From a virus (lineage: Duplodnaviria; Heunggongvirae; Uroviricota; Caudoviricetes), in the IMG/VR virus record IMGVR_UViG_2687453442_000006: 49,011 bases of DNA; one strand, given 5' to 3'. The notes under the pieces were generated by a model. The model was not told where the DNA came from. It searched no databases and was given only the letters and a program-made list of their open reading frames with translations. Positions within the stretch are counted from its first letter, which is position 1; each line of letters begins with the position of its first letter. Of the stretch, positions 1-39,113 are shown in pieces. A program made the translations under genes and the position numbers.

Positions 1-585
1 CTATTCGATAATGGGTACTGTTGGCCATTCAATATCCTGTGAAGTTGACGTATCAACACGGTTCAGCAATACCCGATACTTTTTCCATGCTTCCAGCAAC
101 GAGATTTCTTCCTCCGTTGCAATTTCCAGATCTGCAGCATCCTGAAGCGGCGCAATATGCTCACTGGCTACCTGCATCAGGTTGTTTTTTATTTCTTCCG
201 CCTCCCGGATCCGGAACAGTTTTTCTGCTTCCGTATCCTTCACCCAGGCTGTGCCGTTCCACTTCTGAAACTCTCCTTCCGGCGATAACCAGGTAACATT
301 TTCCGGTAACGGACCGAGTTCAGAAATAAATAACGCGTCGCCGGAAGCCACGTCATAAACCGTTTTACCCCGATGATCTTCAACGAGATGCCACGATGAC
401 TCATCACTGTTGAAAACAGCCACGAAGCCTGCCGGAATATCTGGCGGTGCAATATCGGTACTGTTTGCTGGCAGACCTGTATGAGGCGGAATATATGCAT
501 CACCTTCACCAATAAATTCATTAGTTCCGGCCAGCAGATTATAAATTTTTATGGTCCGTGGTTGTTCACTCATTCTGAATGCCAT
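1..585 (-). CDS. tfa: Tail fiber assembly protein Tfa (lambda-like)
   Basis: 194-aa track ORF whose stop falls at window positions 1-3; sequence ([24 protein letters not shown]...) matches lambda Tfa as I recall it along its whole length; start overlaps stf stop. Confidence 0.9.
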
Positions 586-7700: not shown

Positions 7701-8215
7701 AGGTTACCCACCACCACCGAGGCCAGATACTGCGAGGTGGTTTTGCCCTTAATGGTGATGTCTTTTTCCGTCACCCAGCCACCATTACGCTGGATCTGAA
7801 CCAGCAGGCGGACTTCCGACGGATTCCGGTCCCCCTTTGAGGTGGTTTCCACCAGTGCCTGCACGCCGAAGGTAAAGCGCAGACGGTCGATGTTTGCAGA
7901 CGTAATGGTGCGGGTGATCGGCGTGTCATATTTCACTTCCGTACCCAGCACCGTCTCGGAGCCGGAGGATTCAAACCCCTCCGGCGGTGTCTGCTCCTGC
8001 TCACCGGCACGGAACACCACCGTGACACCGGAGATGTTGGTATTCCCCTCAGTGTCCAGCACCGGCGTACTGTTCAGCAGCACGCTTTTTAATCCATCCA
8101 CCGGACCTTCAACCGGCCCTTCGCTGATGGCATCGATCACACTCAGCAGCTGCGTGGACTTCAGGTTGTCCTTCGCTTCGCGCGGGGTATGCCCCTTACT
8201 GCTGCCTTTACCCAT
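4718..8215 (-). CDS. J: Tail tip / host specificity protein J
   Basis: 1165-aa ORF; N-terminal [37 protein letters not shown]... matches lambda J from memory; position after I. Confidence 0.95.
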
Positions 8216-8275
8216 TCCTCACGCTCCATAAATGACAAAACCGCCCGCAGGCGGTTTCACATAAAACATTTTGCA

Positions 8276-8947
8276 TCAGCGACCAATCACCACAACCTGA
8301 CCACCGTCCCCTTCGTCTGCCGTGCTGATCTCCTGAGAAACCACGCGAGACCCCACGCGCATTTCCCCGTACAGAACAGGCAGAACATTGCCCTGGGCAA
8401 CCATGTTATCCAGTGAGGAGAAATAGGTGTTCTGCTTACCGTTATCCGTTGTCTGTGTACGGGGAGTTCTGGCTTTCGGTGCCAGCATCTGCGCCACACC
8501 ACCGAGCACCATACTGGCACCGAGAGAAAACAGGATGCCGGTCATACCACCGGTCCCAATGGCTGCCCCCCATGCTGCAAGGGTGGCTCCGGCGGTAAAG
8601 AATGATCCGGCAATGGCGGCAGCCCCCAGGACAATCTGGAATACGCCACCTGACTTGGCCCCGGCGACTCTGGGAACAATATGAATCACAGCGCCATCAG
8701 GCAGAGTCTCATGTAACTGCGCCGTTAACCCGGACGTGCTGACGTCCCGCCCGGCAATCCGTACCTGATACCAGCCGTCGCTCAGTTTCTGACGAAACGC
8801 CGGGAGCTGTGTGGCCAGTGCCCGGATGGCTTCAGCCCCCGTTTTCACACGAAGGTCGATGCGGCGACCAAATCGTTGTAAATCCCCGTAAAGGCAGATG
8901 CGCGCCATGCCCGGTGACGCCAGAGGGAGTGTGTGCGTCGCTGCCAT
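8276..8947 (-). CDS. I: Tail assembly protein I
   Basis: 223-aa ORF MAATHTLPLASPGMARICLYGDLQRFG... matches lambda I; about 60-bp gap to J as in lambda. Confidence 0.9.
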   Translation of the reverse strand: MAATHTLPLASPGMARICLYGDLQRFGRRIDLRVKTGAEAIRALATQLPAFRQKLSDGWYQVRIAGRDVSTSGLTAQLHETLPDGAVIHIVPRVAGAKSGGVFQIVLGAAAIAGSFFTAGATLAAWGAAIGTGGMTGILFSLGASMVLGGVAQMLAPKARTPRTQTTDNGKQNTYFSSLDNMVAQGNVLPVLYGEMRVGSRVVSQEISTADEGDGGQVVVIGR

Positions 8948-9588
8948 TTGTCGGTGTACCTCTCTCGTTTGCTCAGTTGTTCAGGAATATGGTGCAGCAG
9001 CTCGCCGTCGCCGCAGTAAATTGCGGCGTGATTCGGCACTGATGAACCAAAACAGCACAGCAGCACATCGCCCGGCTGTGCCGCTGACAACGGCACCTGA
9101 TACAGCCCCGTCGCCTCCAGATTATCCAGATAGAGATTCTGGCCGTTACGCCACCAGTCATCCTCACGATAAAAGTCCGGCATCTCAATCCCCGCCAGAT
9201 GATAAGCATCCCGGAACAGTGTGTAACAGTCCGTCACACCGTGCTCAAAGCGCCGCCCGGTGAGATGCGGCACACAGCGGAATTTATGAATCTCACCCCG
9301 GCAGACCAGCCACCACGGCAAATCGCTCTGCACCTGCAGCCGCCTGTCAGCCTCACTCAGCCAGGGCAGACCACCGGGGTGGCTGTGGACCAGCGCCACA
9401 ATCTCACCCTGCATTTCTGCCTGCAGCCAGTCTTCCGGCGACATCCGGAAATACGCCTCCGGCTCACCGGAGATATTCACGCAGGGAAAATATCTTTCCC
9501 CCTTCGGCGTTCTCACCACGAAGCCGCACGACTCCGCTGGCGCACATCGCCGGGCGTGCGCCAGAATCGCTGATTCTGTCTGTGTCAT
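8845..9588 (-). CDS. K: Tail assembly protein K (MPN/JAB plus NlpC/P60-like)
   Basis: 247-aa ORF MTQTESAILAHARRCAPAESCGF... with HSHP motif; overlaps I start by about 100 nt in another frame, the normal lambda K/I arrangement. Confidence 0.85.
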   Translation of the reverse strand: MTQTESAILAHARRCAPAESCGFVVRTPKGERYFPCVNISGEPEAYFRMSPEDWLQAEMQGEIVALVHSHPGGLPWLSEADRRLQVQSDLPWWLVCRGEIHKFRCVPHLTGRRFEHGVTDCYTLFRDAYHLAGIEMPDFYREDDWWRNGQNLYLDNLEATGLYQVPLSAAQPGDVLLCCFGSSVPNHAAIYCGDGELLHHIPEQLSKRERYTDKWQRRTHSLWRHRAWRASAFTGIYNDLVAASTFV

Positions 9589-9593
9589 GGGAT

Positions 9594-10292
9594 TTACTGC
9601 GAAAGTTTGTTAATGGAAAGGAAGCCGCCAAAGTTGCCGACGTTATTGCGGAACTTACAACCGCTCAGGCATTTGCTGCATTTATCCTTCGTGATATCGG
9701 ACGTTGGCTGGTCATATTCATCCGCGACAGCCGGACCGCTATAACCGCACTCGTCACCGCGATAGGTCCAGGTGCAGGTGTTGGCCAGCATGATACGTCC
9801 CGGAAAAACAGCGCCATCCGTTTCCGTCGGCGTGGACAGTACAAAGGAGGCACTCACCGCGCTCAGTTCGCTGCACTGCTCAATGCGCCAGCGGCTGATC
9901 ACCTCCTGCTCCGGATCGGCGTAACTGTTTCCGTTGACGAAGTTCACCGCATCCAGAAAACGGGCGTAAACCTTACGCCGGACCACCGTTCCGCCGACCA
10001 GACTCTGCAGATCTTCCGCCATCCCGGTGACCATACCGTACAGGTTAGAAACCGTCAGCGTGGGGCGCGTACTGGTGCCTTTGCCATTCAGTTCAAAACC
10101 GCTCCCCTGAATGGGATACGGCTGATACTGTCGCCCCTGCCAGGTGACCGGCTCACCTTTTTCGTTCTGCTCATTACAGAAAAAATAACGTTCTCCACCG
10201 ACCTCTGTCAGGTCGATTTCCCAGAGCACCACGCTGGCCGACTGCTCCGCACGGGTGCATTCATTCAGTGTTTCCTGCCGGATATCCTGCAT
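9594..10292 (-). CDS. L: Tail assembly protein L
   Basis: 232-aa ORF MQDIRQETLNECTRAEQSASVVLWEIDLTEVGGERYFFCNEQNEKGEP... matches lambda L. Confidence 0.9.
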   Translation of the reverse strand: MQDIRQETLNECTRAEQSASVVLWEIDLTEVGGERYFFCNEQNEKGEPVTWQGRQYQPYPIQGSGFELNGKGTSTRPTLTVSNLYGMVTGMAEDLQSLVGGTVVRRKVYARFLDAVNFVNGNSYADPEQEVISRWRIEQCSELSAVSASFVLSTPTETDGAVFPGRIMLANTCTWTYRGDECGYSGPAVADEYDQPTSDITKDKCSKCLSGCKFRNNVGNFGGFLSINKLSQ

Positions 10293-10621
10293 CAGTTCAC
10301 CACCTGTTCAAACTCTGCGCTGAACTCAACACGCAGCATACTGACCCGCGACGACCATTTTGCGCAGGTCACCTTTATCTGCTGCCACTCATAAGGCGGC
10401 GTCCACAGAAAGGATTTCCAGCCCCCGTGCTCTTCCAGAAACGACTCCAGTACCGTGGCCTCCTCACGGGGGACAGAAAGCGTCACGCTGTACGTTTTCA
10501 GGTTGGCATTCAGCCCGGCAGGCGCTCGCTGAGAATAGCCATCACCAAAGCGCACCTTTCTTACAGAAGGGACCGAAGCCACATCCATACCGGGTTTCAC
10601 TTTCCAGCGGAAGGTCTTCAT
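10292..10621 (-). CDS. M: Tail assembly protein M
   Basis: 109-aa ORF MKTFRWKVKPGMDVASVPSVRKVRFGDGYSQRA... matches lambda M; overlaps H stop. Confidence 0.9.
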   Translation of the reverse strand: MKTFRWKVKPGMDVASVPSVRKVRFGDGYSQRAPAGLNANLKTYSVTLSVPREEATVLESFLEEHGGWKSFLWTPPYEWQQIKVTCAKWSSRVSMLRVEFSAEFEQVVN

Positions 10622-13179
10622 CGTCCACCTCCGGAGAACAGGCCACCATCACGCATCTGTGTCTGAATTTCATCACGGGCACCCTTGCGGGCCATGTCAT
10701 ACACCGCCTTCAGAGCAGCCGGACCTATCTGCCCGTTCGTGCCGTCGTTGTTAATCACCACATGGTTATTCTGCTCAAACGTCCCGGACGCCTGCGACCG
10801 GCTGTCTGCCATGCTGCCCGGTGTACCGACATAACCGCCGGTGGCATAGCCGCGCATCAGCCGGTAAAGATTCCCCACGCCAATCCGGCTGGTTGCCTCC
10901 TTCGTGAAGACAAACTCACCACGGTGAACAATCCCCGCTGGCTCATATTTGCCGCCGGTTCCCGTAAATCCTCCGGTTGCAAAATGGAATTTCGCCGCAG
11001 CGGCCTGAATGGCTGTACCGCCTGACGCGGATGCGCCGCCACCAACAGCCCCGCCAATGGCGCTGCCGATACTCCCGACAATCCCCACCATTGCCTGCTT
11101 AAGCAGAATTTCTGTCATCATGGACAGCACGGAACGGGTGAAGCTGCGCCAGTTCTGCTCACTGCCGGTCAGCATCGCCGCCATATTCTGTGCAATACCA
11201 TCAAAGGTCTGCGTGGCTGCACTTTTTACCTGCGACATACTGTCCGTGGCGCTCTCTTCCCACTCACTCCAGCCGGACTTCAGGCCTGCCATCCAGTTCC
11301 CGCGAAGCTGGTCTTCAGCCGCCCAGGTCTTTTTCTGCTCTGACATGACGTTATTCAGCGCCAGCGGATTATCGCCATACTGTTCCTTCAGGCGCTGTTC
11401 CGTGGCTTCCCGTTCTGCCTGCCGGTCAGTCAGCCCCCGGCTTTTCGCATCAATGGCGGCCCGTTTTGCCCGTTGCTGCTGTGCGAATTTATCCGCCTGC
11501 TGCGCCAGCGCGTTCAGGCGCTCCTGATACGTAACCTTGTCGCCAAGTGCAGCCAGCTGGCGTTTGTACTCCAGCGTCTCATCTTTATGCGCCAGCAGGG
11601 ATTTCTCCTGTACAGACAGCTGGCGACGTTGCGCCGCCTCCTCCAGTACCGCGAACTGACTCTCCGCCTTCCACAAATCCCGGCGCTGCTGGCTGATTTT
11701 CTCATTTGCTCCGGCATGCTTCTCCAGCGTCCGGAGTTCAGCCTGAAGCGTCAGCAGGGCAGCATGAGCACTGTCTTCCTGACGATCGCCCGCAGACACC
11801 TTCACGCCGGACTGCTTCGGCTTTTTCAGTGTCGTTTCATAGTCCTTTTTCGCTGCCGCCATCAGCGTGTTGTAATCTGCCTGCAGGATTTTTCCGTCTT
11901 TCAGGGCCTTATTCAGTTCTTCCTGACGGGCGGCATATTTCTCCAGCGGCGTCTGCAGCCGTTCGTAAGCCTTCTGCGCCTCTTCGGTATATTTCAGCCG
12001 TGACGCTTCGGTATCGCTCTGCTGCTGCGCATTTTTGTCCTGTTGACTCTGCTGTTCAGCCTTCTTTCGGGCGGCTTCAAGCGCAAGACGGGCCTTTTCA
12101 CGATCATCCCAGTAACGCGCCCGCGCTTCATCGTTAACAAAATAATCATCCTTGCGCAGATTCCAGATGTCGTCTGCTTTCTTAAACGCAGCCTCTGCCT
12201 TAATCAGCATCTCCTGCGCGGTATCAGGACGACCAATATCCAGCACCGCATCCCACATGGATTTGAATGCCCGCGCAGTCCTGTCTGCCCAGGTCTCCAG
12301 CGTGCCCATGTTCTCTTTCAGGCGGCGGGTCTGGTCATCAAACCCTTTCGTTGCGGCCTCGTTCGCCGCCTGCAATGCCCCGGCTTCATCGCCGGAACGC
12401 TGCAACTGAGCAACATACGCAATCTGCTCCGCCGTCACGTTATGGAACTGGCGTGCCATCGCCGTCAGCCCCGACGTCGGGTCTGTGGTCAGCTTCCCGA
12501 AGGCTTCAGCGACCTTGTCCACCTCCACGCCGGATGCAGAGGAGAAACGCGCCACACTCTGGCTGATGGACGCAATCTGAGCCTCACCGCTTACCCCCGC
12601 CTTAACCAGTGCGCTGAGTGACTCGCTGGTCTGGTTAAACGTCAGCCCTGCCGCCTGCCCGGCTCTGGACAGGACCAGCATACGATCTGCCGTCAGACCC
12701 GCCTGATTGCCGGAAAGGACCAGCGTTTTGTTGAAATCGGACAGGGTTGAGTTGCCCTGATACCAGGCATACGCCAGCGCACCGGTCGCCACCGCCAGCG
12801 AGGTGGCCCCCACCATCGGCAGGGTGATCGCACCGGCAAGCCCCCTGAACATGGGGATCATCCCGCCGAAGGAGTCCTTCACCTGCCCCCCCTGTTGCAG
12901 CAGGATCAGCCACGGACTTTGCCCGCCTGCAAGCTGCGTGGCCACGTCGGTGAACTGTGCAGGCAGCATACGCATGGCGGCTTTATACTGCCCGACGGAA
13001 ATCCCCGCTTTCTGTGCAGCCAGCGCCTGTCGGCTCAGCGACTGTTCAACGACTGCCGCTGTTTTTTTCGCATCACTTTCCGTACCGGAAAAATGACGCC
13101 TGACTCTGGCCATCTGCTCGTCAAATCTGGCCGCATCCAGACTCAAATCAACGACCAGATCGCCTACCGGTTCAGCCAT
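10618..13179 (-). CDS. H: Tail tape measure protein H
   Basis: 853-aa ORF MAEPVGDLVVDLSLDAARFDEQMARVRRHFSG...; same length as lambda H with matching ends. Confidence 0.95.
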   Translation of the reverse strand: MAEPVGDLVVDLSLDAARFDEQMARVRRHFSGTESDAKKTAAVVEQSLSRQALAAQKAGISVGQYKAAMRMLPAQFTDVATQLAGGQSPWLILLQQGGQVKDSFGGMIPMFRGLAGAITLPMVGATSLAVATGALAYAWYQGNSTLSDFNKTLVLSGNQAGLTADRMLVLSRAGQAAGLTFNQTSESLSALVKAGVSGEAQIASISQSVARFSSASGVEVDKVAEAFGKLTTDPTSGLTAMARQFHNVTAEQIAYVAQLQRSGDEAGALQAANEAATKGFDDQTRRLKENMGTLETWADRTARAFKSMWDAVLDIGRPDTAQEMLIKAEAAFKKADDIWNLRKDDYFVNDEARARYWDDREKARLALEAARKKAEQQSQQDKNAQQQSDTEASRLKYTEEAQKAYERLQTPLEKYAARQEELNKALKDGKILQADYNTLMAAAKKDYETTLKKPKQSGVKVSAGDRQEDSAHAALLTLQAELRTLEKHAGANEKISQQRRDLWKAESQFAVLEEAAQRRQLSVQEKSLLAHKDETLEYKRQLAALGDKVTYQERLNALAQQADKFAQQQRAKRAAIDAKSRGLTDRQAEREATEQRLKEQYGDNPLALNNVMSEQKKTWAAEDQLRGNWMAGLKSGWSEWEESATDSMSQVKSAATQTFDGIAQNMAAMLTGSEQNWRSFTRSVLSMMTEILLKQAMVGIVGSIGSAIGGAVGGGASASGGTAIQAAAAKFHFATGGFTGTGGKYEPAGIVHRGEFVFTKEATSRIGVGNLYRLMRGYATGGYVGTPGSMADSRSQASGTFEQNNHVVINNDGTNGQIGPAALKAVYDMARKGARDEIQTQMRDGGLFSGGGR

Positions 13180-13606
13180 ACCGGACTCCTCCTGCGATCC
13201 CTTCTGATACTGTCATCAGCATTACGTCATCCTCCGTCATGTCCGCCACATCCGGGGAAGCGGGGATAACTTCATTCCCGTCCGGGCCAAAGCGGACACC
13301 TCCGGCAAGCCCTGCCGCTTTCTGCATCAGCACATCATCTTCAGGCTCTTCGTCAGCCTCGCGCCGGTTCAGCAGACTGAAATCCAGCGGATGCATATCC
13401 GGATCGCTGAAAAACAGGCTGAGCACGGTGTACGTCAGCCCGGAAAAGTGCATATCCAGCAGAACATCATGAAAATAATGGGTACTGTAAAAGCGGTGCC
13501 AGTCGGCATACTCCGTGGATGACATCCCGGCAAGCATGGCACGCCAGTCGGGTCGCCCCATCTCACGCGCCAGTTTCAGGGCAAAACTCAGCTCACCGTC
13601 GAACAC
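13172..13606 (-). CDS. T: Tail assembly chaperone T frame, expressed as G-T fusion by -1 programmed frameshift
   Basis: 144-aa ORF overlapping the 3' end of G in the -1 frame; matches lambda T; slippery heptamer GGGAAAG present in the overlap. Confidence 0.8.
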   Translation of the reverse strand: MFDGELSFALKLAREMGRPDWRAMLAGMSSTEYADWHRFYSTHYFHDVLLDMHFSGLTYTVLSLFFSDPDMHPLDFSLLNRREADEEPEDDVLMQKAAGLAGGVRFGPDGNEVIPASPDVADMTEDDVMLMTVSEGIAGGVRYG

Positions 13607-14010
13607 TTTCCCGCAGAAACAGGCTCTGCAGGCCCGGCGTCCTCTGCCTGTTCGGGGGCATTATTCACCACAAACTCATACATACCGGACAGCCGGTACA
13701 CCACGTTTTCAGCATGAGAAATTGCCTCTGTGGGCCAGGTGGTAAGCACTTCCTGCTCAATCTGTTTAACGGCTTCATTCATGGACGGCATCTGCGTCTT
13801 CTTCGGATGGTTATGCCACAGGGACATCGCCACCAGAAACGCGCCGGTTCTGATGACGTCTTCCACAGTAACCTGCCGGTTGCTGTCGGATCCCGCCGGT
13901 TCTGCCTGCCGTTTCATCAGGGCAAGATGCTCAATACGCTGCAGGGCTGACAGTTCAGAAAGCGTGACGGTCACGCCGTTATATTCAAATGATTCGGTTT
14001 TCAGGAACAT
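13588..14010 (-). CDS. G: Tail assembly chaperone G
   Basis: 140-aa ORF MFLKTESFEYNGVTVTLSELSALQRIEHLALMKRQAEPAG... matches lambda G; ends ...SAGKCSTVS with the codons for AGK forming the slippery site. Confidence 0.9.
   Translation of the reverse strand: MFLKTESFEYNGVTVTLSELSALQRIEHLALMKRQAEPAGSDSNRQVTVEDVIRTGAFLVAMSLWHNHPKKTQMPSMNEAVKQIEQEVLTTWPTEAISHAENVVYRLSGMYEFVVNNAPEQAEDAGPAEPVSAGKCSTVS
13597..13603 (-). other. Programmed -1 ribosomal frameshift slippery heptamer GGGAAAG (G to G-T)
   Basis: Plus-strand CTTTCCC (reverse complement GGGAAAG) inside the G/T overlap; known lambda G-T frameshift mechanism; position approximate to about 2 bp. Confidence 0.7.
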
Positions 14011-14025
14011 CGCTGACTCTCCGGA

Positions 14026-14766
14026 TTAACTGGCGGTGACGGTGATTTCTGCAACCGCAGCAAACTCACCATTACCGGATACAACCGGAATGTTGACCTT
14101 GCCTGCAGCAACGCCGTTCACGGTGATGGTCATACCGCTGACCGACACGGTGGCTTTTGTTTTATCCGCAGACACCGCACGGAAGCTCTTGTCGGTTGCG
14201 CCCTCCGGCTGGAATGCCACGGTCAGCGTAGTGCTCTGCCCTTTCACTACGGAAGCACTGGCGGGTGTCACCGTCATGCCGGTTGTCGCCGTCACCGTGC
14301 TGCGATCTTCTGCCATCGACGGACGTCCCACGTTGGTGACTTTCACCGTGCGGGTGATCACTTCCTTCGCCGTCACCGCCTTACCGATACTGCTGACCCA
14401 GCCGCGGAACACATCGACCGTGCCGTTCGGGAAGCGGATTTTATAGGCACGGGTATCCCCTTCATTAAACCACGCCAGCAGCGCCTGCTGCCCCTGCTCT
14501 CCGGGCATCCACGCCAGCGTGAAGCTGGTATCTCCGGCAGATTTCTGCCCCTGCCCGGTCGCAGTCCAGTCCGCATCTTCATCATCGAGATAGCTGTCGT
14601 CATAGGACTCAGCGCTCAGTTCGCCGGGCGTCAGGTCTTTAACTTTAGCCAGACGCGACCAGTCAACGTCTGAAAGCGGGTTCGCATAAGGGTCACCGTT
14701 CCCCTTATAAACCCACAGGGTGGTCCCGGCCCCTTTCACCGGCATTACTGGATTTGGTACAGGCAT
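14026..14766 (-). CDS. V: Major tail protein V
   Basis: Track ORF 14026..14796; start moved in to [22 protein letters not shown] by lambda V homology; C-terminal Ig-like region ...AEITVTAS. Confidence 0.9.
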
Positions 14767-14773
14767 ATCGTCC

Positions 14774-15169
14774 TCACATTTCATAGGTAATGACATAAGT
14801 CAGATCGGCTGAACTCCACAGGCCCGCATCATCGTCGCGCCGGTAGTCATAGCCACTGGCCACCATACTGGTGATCAAATCTGACAGTGCCGGGACATCG
14901 CTCATCACCGGATAAATCCGGGACTCCATCCACGAATCCAGCTCTGAATCCGGCACCTGAGCAGGCAGGAAAACTTCAATATGCAGCTCCGCCTGCCAGG
15001 TATCGCTGTCCAGCTCTTCGCCCGTGTATTCAGCGCCGGTGAGATAAACGGCAACTGCCGGAAAATCCGCCTCATCAAAAACAGCGGGGCGACCATCAAA
15101 AAGCGTCGCCCCGGTGTCATGCTTCTCCAGTGCATCCAGTACGGCTGCACGGAGTTCAGTATGTTTCAT
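14774..15169 (-). CDS. U: Tail terminator protein U
   Basis: 131-aa [55 protein letters not shown]... matches lambda U. Confidence 0.9.
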
Positions 15170-24671: not shown

Positions 24672-25093
24672 CCTCGCGCATACAGCCGGGCAGTGATGTG
24701 ATTGTCTGCGCTGAAATGGACGAACAGTGGGGCTACGTCGGTGCTAAATCACGTCAGCGCTGGCTGTTTTACGCGTATGACAGGATACGGAGGACGGTTG
24801 TGGCGCACGTCTTCGGTGAACGCACTCTGGCCACACTGGAGCGTCTTCTGAGCCTGCTGTCGGCCTTTGAGGTCGTGGTATGGATGACGGATGGCTGGCC
24901 GCTGTATGAATCCCGCCTGAAGGGAAAGCTGCACGTAATCAGCAAGCGTTACACTCAGCGCATTGAGCGACATAACCTGAATCTGAGACAACATCTGGCA
25001 AGGCTGGGACGGAAGTCACTGTCGTTCTCAAAATCGGTGGAGCTGCATGACAAAGTCATCGGGCATTATCTGAACATAAAACACTATCAGTAA
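24590..25093 (+). CDS. insB: IS1 InsB' frame (expressed as InsAB' transposase by -1 frameshift)
   Basis: 167-aa ORF overlapping insA in the -1 frame; sequence ...[33 protein letters not shown]...[69 protein letters not shown] is IS1 InsB. Confidence 0.85.
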
Positions 25094-25700
25094 GTTGGAG
25101 TCATTACCCAGAGAATGTTCATATTGTATTAAAAAATGATAATACAGTGTTATTAAAGGGCCTAAAAAACATTGTGTCTGTCAAATTTTCAAAGGATAGG
25201 CATCTTATAGAAACGACCTCTAATAAGCTGAAATCCAGAGAGATCACATTTCAGGAATACAGAAGAAACCTTGCTAAAGCAGGAGTTTTTCGGTGGGTTA
25301 CAAATATCCACGAACAAAAAAGATATTACTATGCCTTTGATAATTCATTACTCTTTACTGAAAACATACAGAGCACATCACAAATGTTTCCACACTAAAC
25401 CATAACGTCCGGTTTCTTCTACCCCTGCACCGGACTGGCTGACATGAAGAGCAACCCCGCGTTCAGTTGACGCGTTAATAACCCGGTGTGCATCGTTTTT
25501 GATTATTCCCGCACACTCACGCAGAAGGAATTCCCCGTCGGGCTACGGTCATGGTTAATGCGGGAATACGGCGACGATACAGCGCATGATGTGTCAGGCT
25601 TGAATACCTTTATCCGTTAAAAGGGATATCAGTTAAGTTATCCCGTGCAGGGTATAAGCCATTATCAAGCCCCCCGTAGATAGGCTTTGTAATGACATCT

Positions 25701-26225
25701 TCAATTAATCAGCAGTTCAGGCTGTGTCACCTGCAAGATGTATTCATGCTCGACAGCCAGGACACGCTTCTCTTTCTTCCGTTCGTTCATTAACCGACTG
25801 CCGATCGTACCTTTCAGCTTTGAGCGTGTTTCTTTGATGGCGTAGCGGTGCTGCATTTCTTCGCCAATTGCCATGCGGCGGCTCAGTTGTTCTGCCATCC
25901 AGTTGAATGCTGCGATATAGCTCTCCTTGATTGCCGCAGCAGCTTTCCCGGTGAACCCCATCACAACCATGATCCAGCCATCTTTCGTCAGGCTGTACAT
26001 CGGGCGAACCTTGCCCTGCTCATCGATATAATCAGCCGACGCAAAATTGCGTTGGCTAAACTCACGCGAGCAATCAGCCTTAACCTGCTCGATTTTCCTG
26101 AGAACATCACCGTGTCGCTTGCCGAAGTACTTGGCAATTTTTCTGGATGTGGTAACGACCTCTCCGTTTTTGGCTTGCACCATTTCTCGGAAGTCGAAGG
26201 CTGGAATAACTGAATGATTATTCAT
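25701..26225 (-). CDS. Rha-family phage regulatory protein
   Basis: Track ORF 25701..26468; start placed at the internal ATG giving MNNHSVIPAFDFREMVQAKNGEVVTTSRKIAKYFGKRHGDVLRKIEQV, which carries the Phage_pRha signature (VTTS...FGKRH..VLR.I); Shine-Dalgarno-like sequence upstream. Confidence 0.65.
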   Translation of the reverse strand: MNNHSVIPAFDFREMVQAKNGEVVTTSRKIAKYFGKRHGDVLRKIEQVKADCSREFSQRNFASADYIDEQGKVRPMYSLTKDGWIMVVMGFTGKAAAAIKESYIAAFNWMAEQLSRRMAIGEEMQHRYAIKETRSKLKGTIGSRLMNERKKEKRVLAVEHEYILQVTQPELLIN

Positions 26226-26567
26226 AGCGTCTTTACCTTTTAGAAAGTGAGCCTGTCTCACAGAAAAGCCGCCCGAGAGAGGTCGCCACCTATAACGGCA
26301 TTTCTCAGGCTCGCTTACTGAAAGGCTCTCGTTAATATGCGCGTGAGATGCGCTGTGAAATTCAGATATAAAAAGCCCCGCGAATGCGAGGCTAAATCCT
26401 GGTATTTGTAATGAACTGGCTCTTATCTCAACGCAGCCCCTTACTGCGCGCCAGATGCTCAATATCAAGCATCAGCAATGAGATGTTTAATCTGGATTTA
26501 CTCCAGAAGTGATCACCACCCTGTCTACAGAGCCAGATGTGAAGGATGATGAGTAAAATTATCGCTA

Positions 26568-27035
26568 TCATCGAAGGCATTGCGTCCTAATGTATTCCTG
26601 AAGCGTTCTCAGTGCTGTTTGGTCGCGGATAATTCCGTCCCGGATATCGAGAACGTTTCGTCCAGCAACTGGAGAGAGTTCGACGGTGGCATCATTGCCC
26701 ATGCCGGAGGCGCTGGAGGTTTCGGCAGAGGATGGCACAGGGCATTTTCCTTTGACGAGCACCCTGCCACCATTATCAAGCTTCCGCAGAAGAGCATCAT
26801 TTTCAGCTTTCGCATCAGCTAACTCCTTCGTGTATTTTGCATCGAGCGCAGCAACATCACGCTGACGCATCTGCATGTCAGTAATTGCCGCGTTCGCCAG
26901 CTTCAGTTCTCTGACATTTTTGTCGCGCTGGGCTTTGTAGGTAATGGCGTTATCACGGTAATGATTAACAGCCCATGACAGGCAGACGATGATGCAGATA
27001 ACCAGAGCGGAGATAATCGCGGTTACTCTGTTCAT
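26568..27035 (-). CDS. Rz: Spanin inner-membrane subunit Rz (i-spanin)
   Basis: Track ORF 26568..27047; N-terminal TM helix ([23 protein letters not shown]) then coiled-coil periplasmic domain; directly downstream of the endolysin; contains embedded Rz1. Confidence 0.8.
26609..26815 (-). CDS. Rz1: Spanin outer-membrane lipoprotein Rz1 (o-spanin), embedded in the +1 frame of Rz
   Basis: 68-aa [24 protein letters not shown]... with lipobox (VAGC) and Pro-rich segment [11 protein letters not shown]; fully inside Rz in another frame, the classic Rz/Rz1 arrangement. Confidence 0.65.
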
Positions 27036-27529
27036 TGCTGACCCCACAAACAGATTTCACGCTCAATCTCACGACGAGTCATGAGACCTTTCCATTGCTT
27101 ACCGCCAGCATATGTCCAGCGACGTAGCTGATCACATGCGCCTTTGATATCGCCCTGGTTTATTTTGCGAAGAAGCGTCGATGTTCTGAAATTGCCAGCA
27201 CCCACGTTGTAAACGAATGAGTAAAGAGCGCCGCGCATTGTTTCCGGTATATCGACTTTGATGTACGGGTTAATTTGTCTGGCGACCGTGGCAAGGTCTT
27301 TATTCAGGAGGGCTTTGCATTCTGCTTTGGTATACGTTTTACCGAGCATGATGTCTTTTCCTGTATGCCCGTGACATACAGTCCATACACCAACAATATC
27401 TTTGTATGGTATGTAGCTGACACCTTCCAGACCATCGTTACCACTTGGGCCAGTAATTAACACTGATGCTGTAGCAATTGCTCCGCCACCAATAGCAGCA
27501 GCAACGGCTTTTCGTAATGATGGAGGCAT
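27032..27529 (-). CDS. R: SAR-endolysin (phage 21 R / DLP12 RrrD-like lysozyme, GH24)
   Basis: 165-aa ORF; N-terminal Gly/Ala-rich signal-anchor-release segment ([20 protein letters not shown]) followed by T4-lysozyme-like fold; matches the phage 21-type endolysin as I recall it. Confidence 0.9.
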
Positions 27530-27744
27530 TATTCACCTCTCGCAGCCTTGCGCTTATCTTCTTTAATCTTGAAATAAAGGTTTGTCAGGTACGTCAGCAG
27601 GCCAAATACCAGGCTACCCAGCACACCTATTGCTGCCCACTGTGAGGGCGTGACTTTATCGAGCAGCTGTAAAAACCAGTAACCGGCACTACCTGCTGAG
27701 GTGCCATAGGCGACACCCGTTGTTAACTTATCCATGGATTTCAT
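27529..27744 (-). CDS. S: Pinholin S21-type holin (71-aa form)
   Basis: Track ORF 27529..27789; start placed at [71 protein letters not shown] (dual-start motif MKSMDK typical of the S21 71/68 pair); stop overlaps R start. Confidence 0.85.
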
Positions 27745-28332
27745 AACCCCACCTCGCAGACAAAGCGGGTGTAAATTGAGGGAATACAACGTATCGCAAA
27801 AAAGCAGAAACGTAACAGACTCGGAGTCAGTGAATAACTCAGGTATTGAGTTATCAGCTAATATCGAGACTCAAAAAATGGAAAAACCAGCTCGACGGCG
27901 GGTTTAAGCTGTGTGACGAAGTAACCACTCTTAACAGCATAACCAATTTTTTACGTACGTAAACCACTGAATGATATTTATGAGAATGCTACCGAGTGTT
28001 CAAAACTCCACCACAAATACATAAGAAAACCTCAACAAATAACCAATAAATAATTTCAGACGTTATTTTTAGTTGATTTAAATTAGACTGCCGAATTATA
28101 GAACCCCCATAAATAACAGCCATTAATATAAATTAGCTAATAGGTTTATTTTTGTTCAAATAAGAGCCATAAATAGGTTTCGATAGAAAAAGTTCAGATA
28201 AAAATAGAGATCTACTTCACAAATTAAATGAGAAACTAAAACTTACATCTTGAAATAATCACATTGATTAGATGAATATTTATCGCGCAGTGACATCATT
28301 TTTTAATAATAGTTCAAAAAAAAGGGCTCACG

Positions 28333-29415
28333 ATGAAAAAATTAACAGTGGCAATTTCTGCTGTAGCTGCATCAGTACTGATGGCGATGTCTGCTCAGGC
28401 AGCTGAAATTTATAATAAAGACAGTAACAAGCTGGATCTGTACGGGAAAGTTAATGCTAAGCACTACTTCTCCTCTAATGATGCAGATGATGGTGATACT
28501 ACTTATGCCCGTCTTGGCTTCAAAGGTGAAACCCAAATCAACGATCAACTGACTGGTTTCGGTCAGTGGGAATATGAATTCAAAGGCAACCGCGCTGAAT
28601 CTCAAGGTTCCTCCAAAGACAAAACCCGTCTTGCATTTGCAGGCCTGAAATTCGGTGACTACGGCTCAATCGATTACGGCCGTAACTACGGTGTAGCATA
28701 CGACATCGGTGCGTGGACTGACGTTCTGCCAGAATTCGGTGGCGATACCTGGACCCAAACAGATGTATTCATGACTGGTCGCACCACAGGTGTTGCAACT
28801 TATCGTAACAACGACTTCTTTGGTCTGGTTGATGGCCTGAACTTTGCAGCTCAGTATCAGGGCAAAAATGACCGAAATGAAGTAACTGAAGCTAATGGCG
28901 ATGGTTTCGGTTTCTCAACTACTTATGAGTATGAAGGATTCGGCGTGGGTGCAACCTATGCTAAATCTGATCGCACTAATAATCAGGTTATCTACGGTAA
29001 CAACGGTCTGAATGCTTCTGGTCAAAATGCTGAAGTATGGGCAGCTGGTCTGAAATATGATGCGAACAACATCTATCTGGCCACCACCTATTCTGAAACC
29101 CAGAACATGACTGTTTTTGGTAATAACCATATTGCCAACAAAGCACAAAACTTCGAAGCTGTTGCACAATATCAGTTCGACTTCGGCCTGCGTCCATCCG
29201 TTGCTTACCTGCATTCTAAAGGAAAAGACTTGGGTGTTTGGGGTGATCAGGACCTGGTTGAATATGTTGATGTAGGTGCAACCTATTACTTCAACAAAAA
29301 TATGTCCACTTTTGTTGACTACAAAATCAACCTGATTGATAAGAGCGATTTCACGAAAGCATCTGGCGTTGCTACCGATGATATCGTTGCTGTAGGTATG
29401 GTTTACCAGTTCTAA
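28333..29415 (+). CDS. Prophage-encoded general porin (OmpC/OmpF/PhoE family; NmpC/Lc-like)
   Basis: 360-aa ORF with signal peptide [46 protein letters not shown] and C-terminal ...VAVGMVYQF typical of 16-strand enterobacterial porins; opposite strand to late genes, between Q and the lysis cassette, as in DLP12 (nmpC) and PA-2 (lc). Confidence 0.9.
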
Positions 29416-29435
29416 TTTGATTACTAAAAGATATG

Positions 29436-29580
29436 TTGTGGGAGGCTTTGCCTCCCCAACATATAAGTGGCTCCCTCAAGCCACTTCCTTTAGAAGCACA
29501 ACCTTGCTTCTAACTATACAAACCTTCTGTTATATATTACCCTTTATTTTTGGGGGCGTTTCAACGCCCCATTTTTAATA
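29436..29580. terminator. Cluster of hairpins between the porin gene and Q (candidate porin terminator on plus strand; candidate late tR'-like terminator on minus strand)
   Basis: Three GC-rich inverted repeats (gggaggc/gcctccc; agtggct/agccact; gggggcg/cgcccc) each with adjacent T-runs; boundaries approximate; functional assignment is inference. Confidence 0.4.
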
Positions 29581-29603
29581 ACTTTTAGTAAATAATTGGC
29601 GTA

Positions 29604-29987
29604 TTAATTAGAGTTATTAACAACGATATCCATCTCTAACCGGATATCTAATGCCATTAACATCCCTTCAATTATGCCCTCAGCCTTTTGTAACCTTTTC
29701 CCGATATAACCATCAGAGCAGCAATGCTTACCTGCCAGTGACATGAATGTCATACCGACTACATAATAATCTACTAATAAATCGTGCAAATCGCTGTTGT
29801 TCTTTTTCAGACGGGCCATGCACCCGCAAATAATCATCGCGTCATCGTCACAACATTGCGGGCGAGATTTTACTTTTGAAGTAATTAATCCCTTAAAACC
29901 GGCGGCAATGGACGACCAGGTCACATCTTCATGATTATTAGCCGCCCACGCTCCCCAACGCTCAAGAACCATCTGAATATCACGCAT
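29604..29987 (-). CDS. Q: Late gene antiterminator Q (phage 21/82/DLP12 QuuD type)
   Basis: Track ORF 29604..30002; [60 protein letters not shown]... matches DLP12 QuuD as I recall it; start at MRDIQM chosen (alternative 15 nt upstream). Confidence 0.8.
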
Positions 29988-30209
29988 CAACTTACTCCAC
30001 AAAAATCAGGCCAGAACGCCAATTACAAGCAAAAATCAACAAAACAGTATTAGTTGATTGTTATCTCTGACTTCATACTCCTGCTCCTGTCAGGGTTTTG
30101 GCGTAATTCTTCAGTATTCGGTAATCGGTCAAAACAGAACCGGGGGAACGATATAAGCGCAGACGCCCCCAGCGGTGGAGAAGAAGTTCTGCCATATTAA
30201 ACTCAAACA

Positions 30210-30572
30210 TCATTCATTCCCCATTTCGGTGATGGTCAGTTCCAGCCTCCCACCTTTGGTAACAGGCATCTTCACAACGCGGTAATCAACGACCTGAGCA
30301 TCATCCAGCCAGAAACCTGCTTTGGTAAGTGCGTCAAAAGCAGCTTTTTGCAGATTATCCAGGTCACGGCGACGGCGATCCGGCATGTGACACTCAATGC
30401 GGATTTTCACAGGAATAGCCAGGCCGATATCCAGCATTGCGTTTTTAATGATTCGGGCGACGTTATCGCGGTATGCCTGCCCCTCTGCGCTGATGTGCGT
30501 GCGCCCGCGATTATGGCGGTAATAGCGATTATTGCTCGGAGGCCAGGGTAATGTGATGTGGTAAGTATTCAC
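30210..30572 (-). CDS. rusA: Holliday junction resolvase RusA
   Basis: Track ORF 30210..30635; homology to RusA begins at (V/M)[37 protein letters not shown]; GTG start with GAGGGGG Shine-Dalgarno chosen, overlapping ybcO stop; 120 aa. Confidence 0.85.
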
Positions 30573-30859
30573 GCCTTGATTACCCCCTCTTTCAGCCAGA
30601 TAACCTGCGTTCTCGCCATACCTTCCAGCGCGCATTCTTTTGCGTACTCAGCATCGACAAAATGCGTGCGGCGATCGATTTCGTCGTGGCAGGCAGAACA
30701 TGCAATGGTGGCAATCAGGTCTGGCGGTTTAATACCGGTGCCGCACAATCCAGCCAGCCGGATATATGCCAGTACAGACGTTTCAGGGTTGCCATTACAT
30801 ACGCCAGGGATTCTTACCTGGCATTCCCGACCACGCGCTGCTTTTCTCAAATCAGCCAT
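30569..30859 (-). CDS. ybcO: YbcO-like (DUF1364) putative nuclease
   Basis: Track ORF 30569..30898; start moved in to [42 protein letters not shown]..., Cys-rich; matches DLP12 YbcO from memory; start overlaps ninE stop. Confidence 0.8.
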
Positions 30860-31022
30860 GATTCCTCCTTGCTGCCAGTCGCAACCATTTTTTATCAACC
30901 AGGCTGGCGGTATATCCGAGCAGTGTTGGTATTTCGGATGGCTTCAGCTCAGGTTTACGCTTACGACGATTTGGTACTTTGTAGATGTGTCCGTTCATGA
31001 CACGAATAAGCGGTGTAGCCAT
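30852..31022 (-). CDS. ninE: NinE
   Basis: 56-aa ORF not in the track (below 60 aa), translated by eye as [56 protein letters not shown]; near-identical to lambda NinE; ATG overlaps ybcN stop (TAATG). Confidence 0.7.
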   Translation of the reverse strand: MATPLIRVMNGHIYKVPNRRKRKPELKPSEIPTLLGYTASLVDKKWLRLAARRNHG

Positions 31023-31477
31023 TACGCCTCCTGCTTGTCGCGCAGCAGCTGGAACTCGCAGCTCTGCGGAATAGTCAGGTGACAGCCAATATTCATCGCC
31101 CAGGCTTCAACCTTACACAGGAAGACATACATCTCTCCGGTATCAAGATCGGAGGTATGGCGTAACGACTGGATAGTAGTGATTTCGCCGGTTACGACAT
31201 CAACCAGGTCCTTGGTTTCATAACCGAGGTATGTGTGTTTGAGAGCATCTTTTACCCATGCTGCGGTAGCGAACGATTTCCCCCTGCTGATGAGGTATTC
31301 ACTGATTTCGCTGTACCACATGTGGCTGAGTGCATTCTGGGAAAGACTGCGTCTCTCTCGCCACGGTTTAAGCACCATGCGAAAGCATTTGCCTTCCTCC
31401 AGATAAGGCTGGATCTGCTGGCCGATAGCGGTGAAGTTGCCGCGATGTAATTTGATGCCGTCTTGTGAGAGGTTCAC
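31022..31477 (-). CDS. ybcN: YbcN-like protein (DLP12 nin-region protein)
   Basis: 151-aa ORF (GTG start, GGAGG Shine-Dalgarno) [62 protein letters not shown]...; matches DLP12 YbcN as I recall it. Confidence 0.8.
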
Positions 31478-32065
31478 GCTTCACCTCCGCAGAGGTCAAA
31501 CGTTAGATGCAAAGAATTGCAGGTGCATTTCTGCATCTGTGACGGGAGAAGTGAGTTTGGATTGTGTGTGCGCATAAACGTCCCCGTTTAGCGCAGAAGT
31601 CACCGGAGTTGTTCAGGCTCCGATGAGATGATTATGGCGGGTTGATTATTGAAAATCAATTTTGTGGATTTAGGCGCAATATGAAGGATCATTAGCAGCT
31701 CTAATACCGTTCTGAATCGATTGCTCGCACCCTATTGTGAGCCAGGAAATATTTTTGCTCGATGTAAGTCAAGCCACCGGCTTCACGTCGCTCAGATACT
31801 TGAGGAAGTGGAGTGACATTCTGGCAGGCGGTTAGCATCACCTGCTCGCCATAACCAAGCGAGTGTACAAAGTTCGCTGTCGGTGAATCACCTTTTTATT
31901 GGAGCGCGCTGCACTTCTCATTGAGGATAATTGGTACCCAGTAGACGTATTTTTTCGCTACTGAGTACCTGTGACGATGGCAATCAGATCGGCACTACGA
32001 CAAGTGAAAAAAATCACATTGTATTAAGCATGATTTCATTAAAAACTGGCCAATAGTTATTAAAA

Positions 32066-32086
32066 GACCCCTTGCGGGGTCTTTTA
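32066..32086. terminator. Bidirectional rho-independent terminator downstream of the SIR2-like gene
   Basis: Perfect hairpin gaccccTTGCggggtc flanked by an A-run upstream and T-run downstream (aaaagacccc...ggggtctttt); about 125 bp past the SIR2-like stop. Confidence 0.6.
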
Positions 32087-32208
32087 ATTTATTGTTTTTT
32101 AAGCATTTCCTTGATTTTTTTCTTACTTTCTTCAGAAATTCTGCTTTGGTTGTTGATATTTTTCTGCTTCATAAGCCCCTTCACTCTCAGTTAATCACTG
32201 TTCAATTA

Positions 32209-34191: not shown

Positions 34192-34299
34192 GATATCCAG
34201 CTGGTTCGATCATTTTCGCAACAATAAAATGATGCATTCCACTATCTTATACTCCCTATGTTACCCCTAATGTTAACGAGAACTTAACACAGTTGTCTT

Positions 34300-35001
34300 T
34301 CATGCTCTTGCTCCTTTCAGTCCGAACTTAGCTTTGATTTCTGCGATCTTCGCCAGAGCCTGTGCACGATTTAGAGGTCTACCGCCCATGACAGGAAGTT
34401 GTTTTACTGGTTCAGGTATAGCCTCACCACGGTTAATTCGTGCGGACATACAGGACAGTTCATCGGCAGCCTTGCGCCGTAATTCCGCGTCAGTCAACGC
34501 ATTGGCCCGCATGTTCTGATACAGGTTGGTAACCAGCCAGTAGTGCGCGTTTGATTTCCACGGATAAGACTCTGCATCAGGATACAGCCCGCGCTTCCGG
34601 CAATACTCGTAAACCATATCAACCAGCTCGCTGGCGTTTGGCAGCCCGGCGGTAACGGATGCTTCTTCCCGGCACCAGGCGACAAACTGCCCGGGTGATG
34701 GCAGGAATGGTCGATTCTGCCGACGGGCTACGCGCATTCCAGCGTTAACCTGTTCCATTGTGGTGATCCCGTTTTCCCGAAAAGCCAGCACCCACTGGCG
34801 GCGGATTTCGTTCAGTTCATTCTGGTCACGGTTAGCCAGGCTCGCCGGGAAAGTTGCCAGTAACTGGCTGAACACACCGTTGATGATCTGCGCTACCTGC
34901 TGTACCTGCGGCTTTTCGTCGTACTGTTCCGGCATGTTGTTGGCGATCCGGCGCATCTGCTCACAGTCAAAGTTAACCATCTGTGCGGCGATGTTTTTCA
35001 T
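34300..35001 (-). CDS. P: Replication protein P (DnaB helicase loader)
   Basis: 233-aa ORF MKNIAAQMVNFDCEQMRRIANNMPEQYDEKPQVQQVAQIINGVFSQLLATFPASLANRDQNE... near-identical to lambda P. Confidence 0.95.
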   Translation of the reverse strand: MKNIAAQMVNFDCEQMRRIANNMPEQYDEKPQVQQVAQIINGVFSQLLATFPASLANRDQNELNEIRRQWVLAFRENGITTMEQVNAGMRVARRQNRPFLPSPGQFVAWCREEASVTAGLPNASELVDMVYEYCRKRGLYPDAESYPWKSNAHYWLVTNLYQNMRANALTDAELRRKAADELSCMSARINRGEAIPEPVKQLPVMGGRPLNRAQALAKIAEIKAKFGLKGARA

Positions 35002-35927: not shown

Positions 35928-36013
35928 AATTCCTCCCGCAATGAGTGTGTTACGATTTGCACCTGAAAGTCGGTTCTGTTCGCGCAGACCGGCTTTCGCC
36001 ATTTCTGAACCTG

Positions 36014-36559
36014 TCATATTGCCCCCAGCATGGTGGTGACCATCGCCATCAGTGGACCAGCCAGATCCGGGTCCACACGAAACATCGACACAATGCCTTC
36101 ACTCATCTCCTTCAGTTTCTGGTGGCGTGGTGCGTTGAGAATGACAGCCTGTTTTGCCTCACTGAGTTCCTTTTCCATTTCAGCCAGCCGAGCCATGAAG
36201 CTATCCTGCTCAACCAGGTGGCCGCGATATTCCAGCGGTAGTACCGCCAGAATTGCCGGGGTCAGTTCACGCACGTTATTTCGGTATTTTTCAGAATCGA
36301 ATTTGTTATCGAGGAAGCGGAACAGCTTCTGGCGTGCACGGCTGACATCATCAGGGAAATCGATGGTGCCGCCGCCCTGCTCCCGATACTCATTCACAAT
36401 GAGTGCGGCAACAACATCCTGATTATCTGCAGCCGACCAGGCGCGGACGGCATCACGGATTTTTTCGTGGCCTGGAGCTTGTTTTGTTTGAGAACGATTT
36501 ATCACCGCAGTCGGGCTAAATCCGCTAGTCTGTTGGTATGTAAGTGGTTGCATAGTCAT
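36014..36559 (-). CDS. CII-position regulatory protein (YdaT-like, tentative)
   Basis: 181-aa ORF between cro and O, overlapping O by 4 nt; no similarity to lambda CII (97 aa) that I can recognise; YdaT-like call is from memory of YdaS/YdaT pairs and is tentative. Confidence 0.45.
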   Translation of the reverse strand: MTMQPLTYQQTSGFSPTAVINRSQTKQAPGHEKIRDAVRAWSAADNQDVVAALIVNEYREQGGGTIDFPDDVSRARQKLFRFLDNKFDSEKYRNNVRELTPAILAVLPLEYRGHLVEQDSFMARLAEMEKELSEAKQAVILNAPRHQKLKEMSEGIVSMFRVDPDLAGPLMAMVTTMLGAI

Positions 36560-36583
36560 TGCCTTATCAGTTAACGCCGCAGA

Positions 36584-39111: not shown

Positions 39112-39113
39112 GA

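What the first reader, a model, noticed from the sequence alone, without database searches (positions are those of the whole stretch)
13172..14010. Conserved G / G-T programmed -1 frameshift with GGGAAAG slippery site
Seen in sequence: G ends ...SAGKCSTVS and the -1 frame ORF T begins within the overlap; the heptamer GGGAAAG is present at the expected place. Established knowledge: lambda makes the tail assembly chaperones G and G-T in a fixed ratio by this frameshift. Not novel, but it should be annotated as a frameshift fusion rather than two independent genes.
Basis: established knowledge. Interest (0 to 1): 0.2.

Follow-up and report, generated by a model that had tools for sequence, protein, structure and literature searches.

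The report
Lambda G/GT tail-chaperone frameshift site
This is the well-known phage lambda tail-assembly gene pair G and T, where a few percent of ribosomes slip back one base at GGGAAAG to make a fused G-T protein. It is real and intact here, and entirely ordinary.

Summary
The genes lie on the minus strand. G runs 14010..13588 (140 aa, ending SAGKCSTVS*). The heptamer G_GGA_AAG sits at 13612..13606 in the X_XXY_YYZ register and ends 15 nt before the G stop. The -1 frame is open from 13660 to the T stop at 13172. A -1 slip gives a 279-aa fusion (...PVSAGK|VFDGELSF...).

The 839 nt are 98.0% identical to lambda J02459 9711..10549. The heptamer, its flanks and all of T match lambda exactly; the 17 differences are all in G. 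Many E. coli prophages carry 100% identical copies.

Pfam finds PF06894 (G) and PF06223 (T), and PHROG 32165 spans the whole fusion. The pair lies between the major tail gene V and the tape-measure gene H.

In diverged relatives a slippery motif sits at exactly the same place, five codons before the G stop: GGGAAAG, AAAAAAG or GGAAAAG. Conservation of the -1 frame starts at the slip site. Neither candidate T start codon is conserved.

Its one practical point also holds: most databases, RefSeq included, annotate T as a separate GTG-start gene. A joined GT CDS is the correct annotation.

The parts
13588..14010 (-). Gene G, tail assembly chaperone gpG: 140 aa, the zero-frame product. ATG at 14010..14008, TGA at 13590..13588.
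   Evidence: ORF list and translation. Pfam PF06894 Phage_TAC_2 covers residues 1-125, E=3.6e-58. 94% aa identity to the G part of lambda gpG (8 substitutions in the first 135 residues).
13606..13612 (-). Slippery heptamer G_GGA_AAG (Gly-Lys in both frames), the site of the -1 tandem tRNA slip. It ends 15 nt (5 codons) before the G stop.
   Evidence: Direct reading and register check. Same position in lambda, PhiR12_1, VT1-Sakai (AAAAAAG), and N15/LLS/mEp213 (GGAAAAG). Annotated as a slippery site in N15 and LLS.
13172..13606 (-). T segment, read in the -1 frame (144 codons). It is translated only as the C-terminal part of gpGT. The databases' 'T' CDS starts at the GTG that overlaps the last base of the heptamer.
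   Evidence: Translation. Pfam PF06223 Phage_tail_T covers fusion residues 164-239, E=7e-14. 100% nt identity to lambda T.
13172..14010 (-). GT fusion CDS, join(14010..13606, 13606..13172) on the minus strand. 279 aa, junction ...AEPVSAGK|VFDGELSFALK...
   Evidence: Constructed translation. PHROG 32165 matches residues 1-278 against profile positions 1-285 of 290, E=2e-125. Same length as the lambda fusion.
13588..13660 (-). Overlap window: the stretch of G in which the -1 frame is already open, about 24 codons. A productive shift must happen here.
   Evidence: The last -1-frame stop ends at region nt 350, which is window 13661. There is only one in-register XXXYYYZ heptamer inside it.
14017..14022 (-). 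Shine-Dalgarno GGAGAG for G, 6 nt upstream of the ATG. No comparable element precedes T.
   Evidence: Direct reading. The bases upstream of GTG 13606 are GCGGGAAA, so any SD-like GGG is only 3 nt away. The bases upstream of ATG 13561 are GCGCGTGAG, directly abutting the ATG.
14026..14766 (-). Context: major tail protein gene V, using the start equivalent to lambda's. It lies immediately upstream of G.
   Evidence: ORF list, lambda annotation, RefSeq annotation of the identical prophage copy.
10618..13179 (-). Context: tape measure protein gene H (853 aa). Its ATG overlaps the T stop (ATGGCTGA).
   Evidence: ORF list, direct reading, lambda and RefSeq annotation.

Best explanation
This is the lambda-type tail assembly chaperone locus G/GT of a lambdoid phage or prophage.

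Ribosomes start at the G ATG (14010, minus strand). Most terminate at the G stop and make gpG (140 aa). A small fraction slip when the GGA (Gly) and AAG (Lys) codons of G_GGA_AAG occupy the P and A sites. Both tRNAs re-pair one base upstream, on GGG and AAA. The ribosome then continues in the -1 frame, passes the G stop, and ends at 13172, giving gpGT (279 aa).

By analogy with lambda, many gpG molecules and a few gpGT molecules coat the tape measure protein H through their G domains. The T domain recruits the major tail protein V to polymerise around H. Neither chaperone remains in the finished tail.

Shown here: the anatomy, the orthology to lambda, and the conserved position of the slip site. 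Inferred from lambda experiments: the slip frequency (about 4%, roughly 30:1) and the assembly role.
For: The heptamer is in the correct register, 5 codons before the G stop, and the -1 ORF is open across it.

The region is 98.0% identical in nucleotides to lambda 9711..10549. All 17 differences lie upstream of the slip site, and T is 100% identical. Exact copies occur in many E. coli chromosomes, and 3704 of 5426 complete genomes carry a homologue.

Pfam finds PF06894 and PF06223 on the fusion, and PHROG 32165 spans the whole fusion. The gene order is V-G-T-H.

In six other lambdoid phages whose G part is 41-94% identical in protein, a slippery motif ending in AAAG sits at the identical distance from the G stop. 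Identity in the -1 frame over the 20 residues right after the slip site is 60-100%. 74 of 80 IMG/VR loci have GGGAAAG, a 140-aa G and a 144-codon extension.

The literature covers the lambda mechanism, ratio and function.
Against: Nothing in the sequence argues against it. No experiment exists on this particular phage.

No significant RNA structure is predicted downstream (z = -1.55 for 100 nt, +0.10 for 55 nt). There is no Rfam family. So the efficiency here rests on the heptamer alone. From my memory of Levin 1993, which I could not read here, that is consistent with lambda's low, roughly 4% rate.
Confidence: 0.97

Rival explanations
1. G and T are two independent genes. T starts on its own, either at the GTG at 13606 (as most database records annotate it) or at the internal ATG at 13561.
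For: the ORF listing gives a 144-aa GTG-start ORF. GenBank lambda, RefSeq/PGAP and many phage records annotate T this way, and one record even adds an 'RBS'. Some relatives are annotated from the internal ATG.
Against: The GTG is the last base of the heptamer plus two, and no Shine-Dalgarno sits at a workable spacing. The codon at that position is GCA or GCC (Ala) in VT1-Sakai, N15, LLS and mEp213, so the 'start' is not conserved. The internal Met is Phe in N15, LLS and mEp213. Amino-acid conservation in the -1 frame begins at the slip site, upstream of any ATG. Reviews state that the T frame is expressed as the frameshift product gpGT.
Confidence: 0.02
2. The fusion is made by transcriptional slippage. 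RNA polymerase adds or drops a base in the GGGAAA run, rather than the ribosome slipping.
For: It would give a similar fusion protein, and it is known for some phage and IS genes (reviewed in PMC5009743).
Against: From general knowledge, productive RNA polymerase slippage needs homopolymer runs of about 6-9 or more; here the runs are only G3 and A3. What relatives conserve is the tRNA re-pairing pattern X_XXY_YYZ or N_NNA_AAG in a fixed register, not a long homopolymer. Frameshifting in lambda responds to modification of tRNA-Lys, which is a ribosomal signature (PMC3296357).
Confidence: 0.005
3. The heptamer is a chance occurrence, or the locus is a decayed prophage remnant in which T is no longer expressed.
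For: GGGAAAG is common in this window, 13 copies. In-register XXXYYYZ heptamers followed by -1 extensions also turn up in spurious antisense frames. A few IMG/VR relatives carry indels that truncate G.
Against: Here both reading frames are intact and full length, identical or nearly identical to functional lambda. The position of the motif is conserved across diverged phages. All neighbouring tail genes are intact.
Confidence: 0.005

Closest known systems
Bacteriophage lambda genes G and T (gpG / gpGT), J02459 9711..10549
   Same: Same gene order (V-G-T-H) and same lengths (140 aa, 279-aa fusion). The heptamer G_GGA_AAG, its 12 bases upstream and all sequence downstream through the T stop are identical. 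The T segment is 100% identical in nucleotides.
   Different: 17 nucleotide differences, all inside G at region nt 28-381. Eight change the protein: H10Y, Q38P, E40G, K46Q, F47V, A52V, Q70K, T122A. The nearest difference is a synonymous CCC>CCT 18 nt upstream of the heptamer.
G/T homologues of other lambdoid phages (PhiR12_1, VT1-Sakai, N15 genes 14/15, LLS genes 11/12, mEp213)
   Same: A -1 overlap at the 3' end of the G homologue, with the slippery motif ending exactly 15 nt before the G stop. The motif LAREx-GRxDWRAMLAGM is conserved just after the slip.
   Different: Their heptamers vary: AAAAAAG in VT1-Sakai and the imperfect GGAAAAG in N15, LLS and mEp213. Their T segments lack the roughly 30-40-residue C-terminal tail seen in lambda and this window. 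G-part identity to the window is only 41-69%.
The conserved tail-assembly-chaperone frameshift of long-tailed dsDNA phages in general (Xu, Hendrix and Duda 2004; e.g. TP901-1, P2 E/E')
   Same: Two overlapping ORFs between the major tail gene and the tape measure gene. A low-level programmed frameshift sets the ratio of short to long chaperone (PMC5009743, PMC4493119).
   Different: Those systems mostly share no detectable sequence similarity with lambda G/T. Some use other heptamers, +1 shifts or higher efficiencies. The window belongs to the lambda sequence family itself.

Membership tests
Lambda-type tail assembly chaperone G/GT with programmed -1 ribosomal frameshift | Two overlapping ORFs located between the major tail protein gene and the tape measure protein gene | tested here: met
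   V 14026..14766, G 13588..14010, T 13172..13606 and H 10618..13179 all lie on the minus strand. The names come from the lambda and RefSeq annotation of orthologous or identical DNA.
Lambda-type tail assembly chaperone G/GT with programmed -1 ribosomal frameshift | The downstream ORF is in the -1 frame relative to the upstream ORF and is open across the 3' end of the upstream ORF | tested here: met
   The -1 frame is open 13660..13172 and the G stop is at 13590..13588.
Lambda-type tail assembly chaperone G/GT with programmed -1 ribosomal frameshift | A slippery heptamer X_XXY_YYZ in the zero-frame register inside the overlap | tested here: met
   G_GGA_AAG at 13612..13606 is the only such heptamer in the overlap.
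Lambda-type tail assembly chaperone G/GT with programmed -1 ribosomal frameshift | The downstream ORF lacks its own conserved start codon and ribosome binding site | tested here: met
   No Shine-Dalgarno sits at usable spacing before GTG 13606 or ATG 13561. Neither codon is conserved in relatives.
Lambda-type tail assembly chaperone G/GT with programmed -1 ribosomal frameshift | Sequence membership of the two parts in Pfam PF06894 (Phage_TAC_2, lambda G) and PF06223 (Phage_tail_T) | tested here: met
   195.3 bits against a cutoff of 27, and 52.5 bits against a cutoff of 25.9. PHROG 32165, 42 and 39 also match.
Lambda-type tail assembly chaperone G/GT with programmed -1 ribosomal frameshift | The slip site keeps its position across diverged family members | tested here: met
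   All seven sequences compared (the window plus six phage relatives) have a slippery motif ending in AAAG that stops 15 nt before the G stop. 74 of 80 IMG/VR loci have the canonical arrangement.
Lambda-type tail assembly chaperone G/GT with programmed -1 ribosomal frameshift | GT fusion protein actually made at a few percent of G, and both proteins required for tail assembly | not testable with these tools
   Shown experimentally for lambda, which has an identical slip site and T segment (Levin 1993 and Xu 2013/2014, as cited in PMC3296357, PMC5009743 and PMC7618472). Not measured for this phage.
Structured-RNA-stimulated -1 PRF signals (dnaX / IS / retroviral type: heptamer plus downstream hairpin or pseudoknot, or upstream SD) | A stable stimulatory RNA structure 5-9 nt downstream of the heptamer | tested here: not met
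   Downstream folds are no better than shuffles (z = -1.55 and +0.10). There is no Rfam hit. The site works like a heptamer-only, low-efficiency signal.

The most novel reading that the evidence does not exclude
The G allele here might behave differently from lambda's. It carries eight substitutions, six of them within residues 38-70 (Q38P, E40G, K46Q, F47V, A52V, Q70K), plus a synonymous change 18 nt upstream of the slip site. These lie next to a T/H-N-terminal block that is nearly identical to lambda. The allele could have altered chaperone/tape-measure specificity or a slightly different frameshift efficiency. That would make it a natural variant for probing how the G:GT ratio is tuned. Nothing in the data suggests this. 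It is simply not excluded.
Probability: 0.04. Interest if true: 0.15.

Novelty: already known. Interest (0 to 1): 0.05.

Why it matters
Scientifically it adds nothing new. It is one more copy of a textbook recoding event, one that is present in about two thirds of complete E. coli genomes.

Its value is for annotation. The correct gene model is G plus a joined GT CDS with ribosomal slippage at 13606, join(14010..13606, 13606..13172) on the minus strand. A free-standing 144-aa 'T' protein that starts at a GTG inside the heptamer is wrong, yet that is how RefSeq/PGAP and most GenBank records present it.

An intact G/GT site also indicates that the tail-assembly module of this phage or prophage is probably functional.

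Tried and rejected
- **Downstream stimulatory RNA.** I folded 100 nt and 55 nt downstream of the heptamer. Neither is more stable than shuffled sequence.
- **Rfam.** The E-value scan of 13000..14200 gave only a sub-threshold snoRNA chance hit.
- **PDB sequence search with the GT fusion.** No hits at E <= 0.01, so no solved relative is detectable by sequence. I did not run structure prediction because it would not change the verdict.
- **IMG/VR relatives.** 80 loci were returned, almost all about 99% identical. They are useful only as a tally, not for covariation. The INPHARED 'distant' BLAST gave the informative diverged relatives.
- **Heptamer as evidence on its own.** Rejected, because GGGAAAG is over-represented in the window and in-register XXXYYYZ heptamers with -1 extensions occur in spurious antisense frames.
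- **Xu et al. 2013 (PMC3762263).** Not held. Levin 1993 is also unavailable. Statements about them are taken from citing papers or marked as memory.
- **The large protein databases.** I did not search them, because the orthology to lambda is already unambiguous.
Full report
**1. The observation**

- The ORF list gives a 140-aa ATG ORF at 14010..13588. It starts MFLKTESFEYNG and ends PAEPVSAGKCSTVS*.
- It also gives an overlapping 144-aa ORF at 13606..13172.
- On the minus strand, the end of G reads GCG GGA AAG TGT TCG ACG GTG AGC TGA.
- GGGAAAG therefore occupies 13612..13606 in the X_XXY_YYZ register, and it ends 15 nt before the G stop.
- The -1 frame has its last upstream stop at region nt 348-350. 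It is open from window 13660 through the TGA at 13174..13172.
- Reading G through AAG and then stepping back one base gives a 279-aa protein with the junction ...AEPVSAGK|VFDGELSFALKLAREMGRPDW....
- Within the 72 nt where a -1 shift could be productive, this is the only in-register XXXYYYZ heptamer.

**2. Is it more than chance?**

The heptamer by itself is weak evidence.
- It occurs 13 times in the window, against 6.0 +/- 2.3 in dinucleotide shuffles.
- Four copies are in register in some open frame of at least 80 codons.
- Only the copy in G is followed by a long -1 frame (144 codons, versus 8-15 for the others). Only that copy sits five codons before the zero-frame stop.
- A wider scan for any XXXYYYZ heptamer with a -1 extension also picks up spurious antisense frames.

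The case therefore rests on orthology and on conserved position, not on the motif.

**3. What it is**

- The 839 nt are 98.0% identical, without gaps, to phage lambda J02459 9711..10549, which is annotated G (140) and T (144).
- There are 17 substitutions, all at region nt 28-381, inside G. Eight change the protein: H10Y, Q38P, E40G, K46Q, F47V, A52V, Q70K and T122A.
- The heptamer, the 12 nt before it and the whole T segment are identical to lambda.
- Many E. coli chromosomes carry 100% identical copies. Homologues occur in 3704 of 5426 complete E. coli genomes.
- The fusion matches Pfam PF06894 (lambda tail assembly chaperone G) over residues 1-125, at 195 bits.
- It also matches PF06223 (minor tail protein T) over residues 164-239, at 52.5 bits. 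Both scores are above the gathering thresholds.
- PHROG 32165 covers the entire fusion.
- The neighbours are the major tail gene V upstream (14026..14766) and the 853-aa tape measure gene H downstream (10618..13179). The H ATG overlaps the T stop.
- The whole window is a mosaic lambdoid genome. Its structural arm is about 97-98% identical to Lambdavirus isolates.

**4. Comparative evidence for the mechanism**

I compared the window with six other phages: lambda, PhiR12_1, VT1-Sakai, N15, LLS and mEp213. Their G-part protein identity to the window ranges from 94% down to 41%.
- All six have a slippery motif that ends exactly 15 nt before the G stop.
- The motif is G_GGA_AAG in lambda and PhiR12_1, A_AAA_AAG in VT1-Sakai, and G_GAA_AAG in N15, LLS and mEp213.
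- N15 and LLS carry explicit annotations of the slippery site.
- Amino-acid conservation in the -1 frame begins immediately after the slip site. Identity over the first 20 residues is 60-100%.
- The GTG that databases use as the 'T start' is an Ala codon (GCA or GCC) in four of the relatives.
- The first internal Met of lambda T is Phe in N15, LLS and mEp213.
- G has a good Shine-Dalgarno (GGAGAG, 6 nt from the ATG). T has none at a workable spacing.

Together these points exclude independent initiation of T as the conserved mode of expression. In a tally of 80 IMG/VR loci, 74 have GGGAAAG with a 140-aa G and a 144-codon extension. The other six are truncated at a contig end or carry indels in G.

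**5. How it works**

Shown here: the anatomy and its conservation.

Taken from experiments on lambda, as reported in papers I could read:
- gpGT depends on -1 frameshifting at GGGAAAG, which encodes Gly-Lys in both frames. The zero frame is kept about 96% of the time (PMC3296357).
[quoted passage not shown] Neither protein is present in the virion.
- The G parts bind the tape measure protein. The T domain binds the major tail protein and recruits it to polymerise around the tape measure (PMC5009743; PMC4493119).
- Hypomodified tRNA-Lys (mnm5s2U34) raises frameshifting and lowers phage yield (PMC3296357 and PMC7618472).

The slip site and the T segment here are identical to lambda's, so the same behaviour is the straightforward inference.

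I found no downstream RNA structure better than shuffled controls and no Rfam family. That fits a heptamer-only, low-efficiency signal. My recollection that Levin 1993 found little dependence on flanking sequence comes from memory and was not checked here.

Transcriptional slippage is unlikely. The homopolymer runs are only three bases long, and relatives conserve the tRNA re-pairing pattern in a fixed register rather than a long run.

**6. Comparison with what is known, and novelty**

This is a member of the lambda G/GT family by every sequence-testable criterion (see the membership table). Only the biochemical criterion, that the fusion protein is actually made, cannot be tested with these tools. 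The feature is already known. It differs from lambda by eight substitutions in G and nothing else.

- GenBank lambda, RefSeq/PGAP and most phage records list T as a separate CDS.
- One record even assigns it an RBS.
- Only a few records, such as LLS, use a joined CDS.

**7. Verdict**

Confidence is 0.97, novelty is 'already known', and interest is 0.05.

Noticed in passing
window, whole; sites listed: GGGAAAG occurs 13 times on both strands, against 6.0 +/- 2.3 in dinucleotide-preserving shuffles (0 of 100 shuffles reach 13). Only the G/T copy is in register with a long -1 ORF behind it. The excess is probably a codon-usage effect (GGG-AAA, GGA-AAG, GAA-AG), but I did not examine it.
   Followed up: partly
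window ~13630..12110 (-), compared with L001 (lambda 8211..12049): Divergence from lambda is about 2-4% across Z, U, V and G. It drops to at most 1 difference per 200 nt from just upstream of the slip site through T and the N-terminal half of H, then rises again (10 differences in 11910..11711). This looks like a recombination or mosaic block whose left boundary falls near the end of G.
   Followed up: partly
window 44..242 (-): Rfam gathering-level hit to IS009 (RF02111): 219 bits, full length. It was the only Rfam family found in the whole window. No tRNA genes were found.
   Followed up: no
L009 (NZ_CP023844.1), L001 (J02459), L010 (OM418625): Public annotation is inconsistent. RefSeq/PGAP and GenBank lambda list T as an independent 144-aa CDS that starts at the GTG inside the heptamer. 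The Lambda imm21 record assigns that CDS a 3-nt 'ribosome_binding_site'. PhiR12_1, VT1-Sakai and mEp213 start T at an internal ATG. Only LLS uses a joined CDS.
   Followed up: yes
L011, L012, L013 (IMG/VR UViGs), G at 1501 onward: These relatives have G cut short to 124, 99 and 12 codons by indels, while the T frame stays open. They are either decaying prophages or assembly errors.
   Followed up: no
window 14767..14796 (-): The mechanical V ORF has a 10-codon in-frame upstream ATG extension ([16 protein letters not shown]...). The start equivalent to lambda's is 14766, giving 246 aa. The old lambda record labels V as '256' although its coordinates encode 246 aa.
   Followed up: partly
window 25001..49011: The non-structural arm is much more mosaic than the structural arm. 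The best phage record covers only 61% of it at 96.8% identity (features there include integrase, an OmpD-like porin and a mobile-element protein). No record covers 80% or more. The window order (b-region, int ... lysis, cos, head, tail) is permuted relative to the lambda virion map.
   Followed up: no
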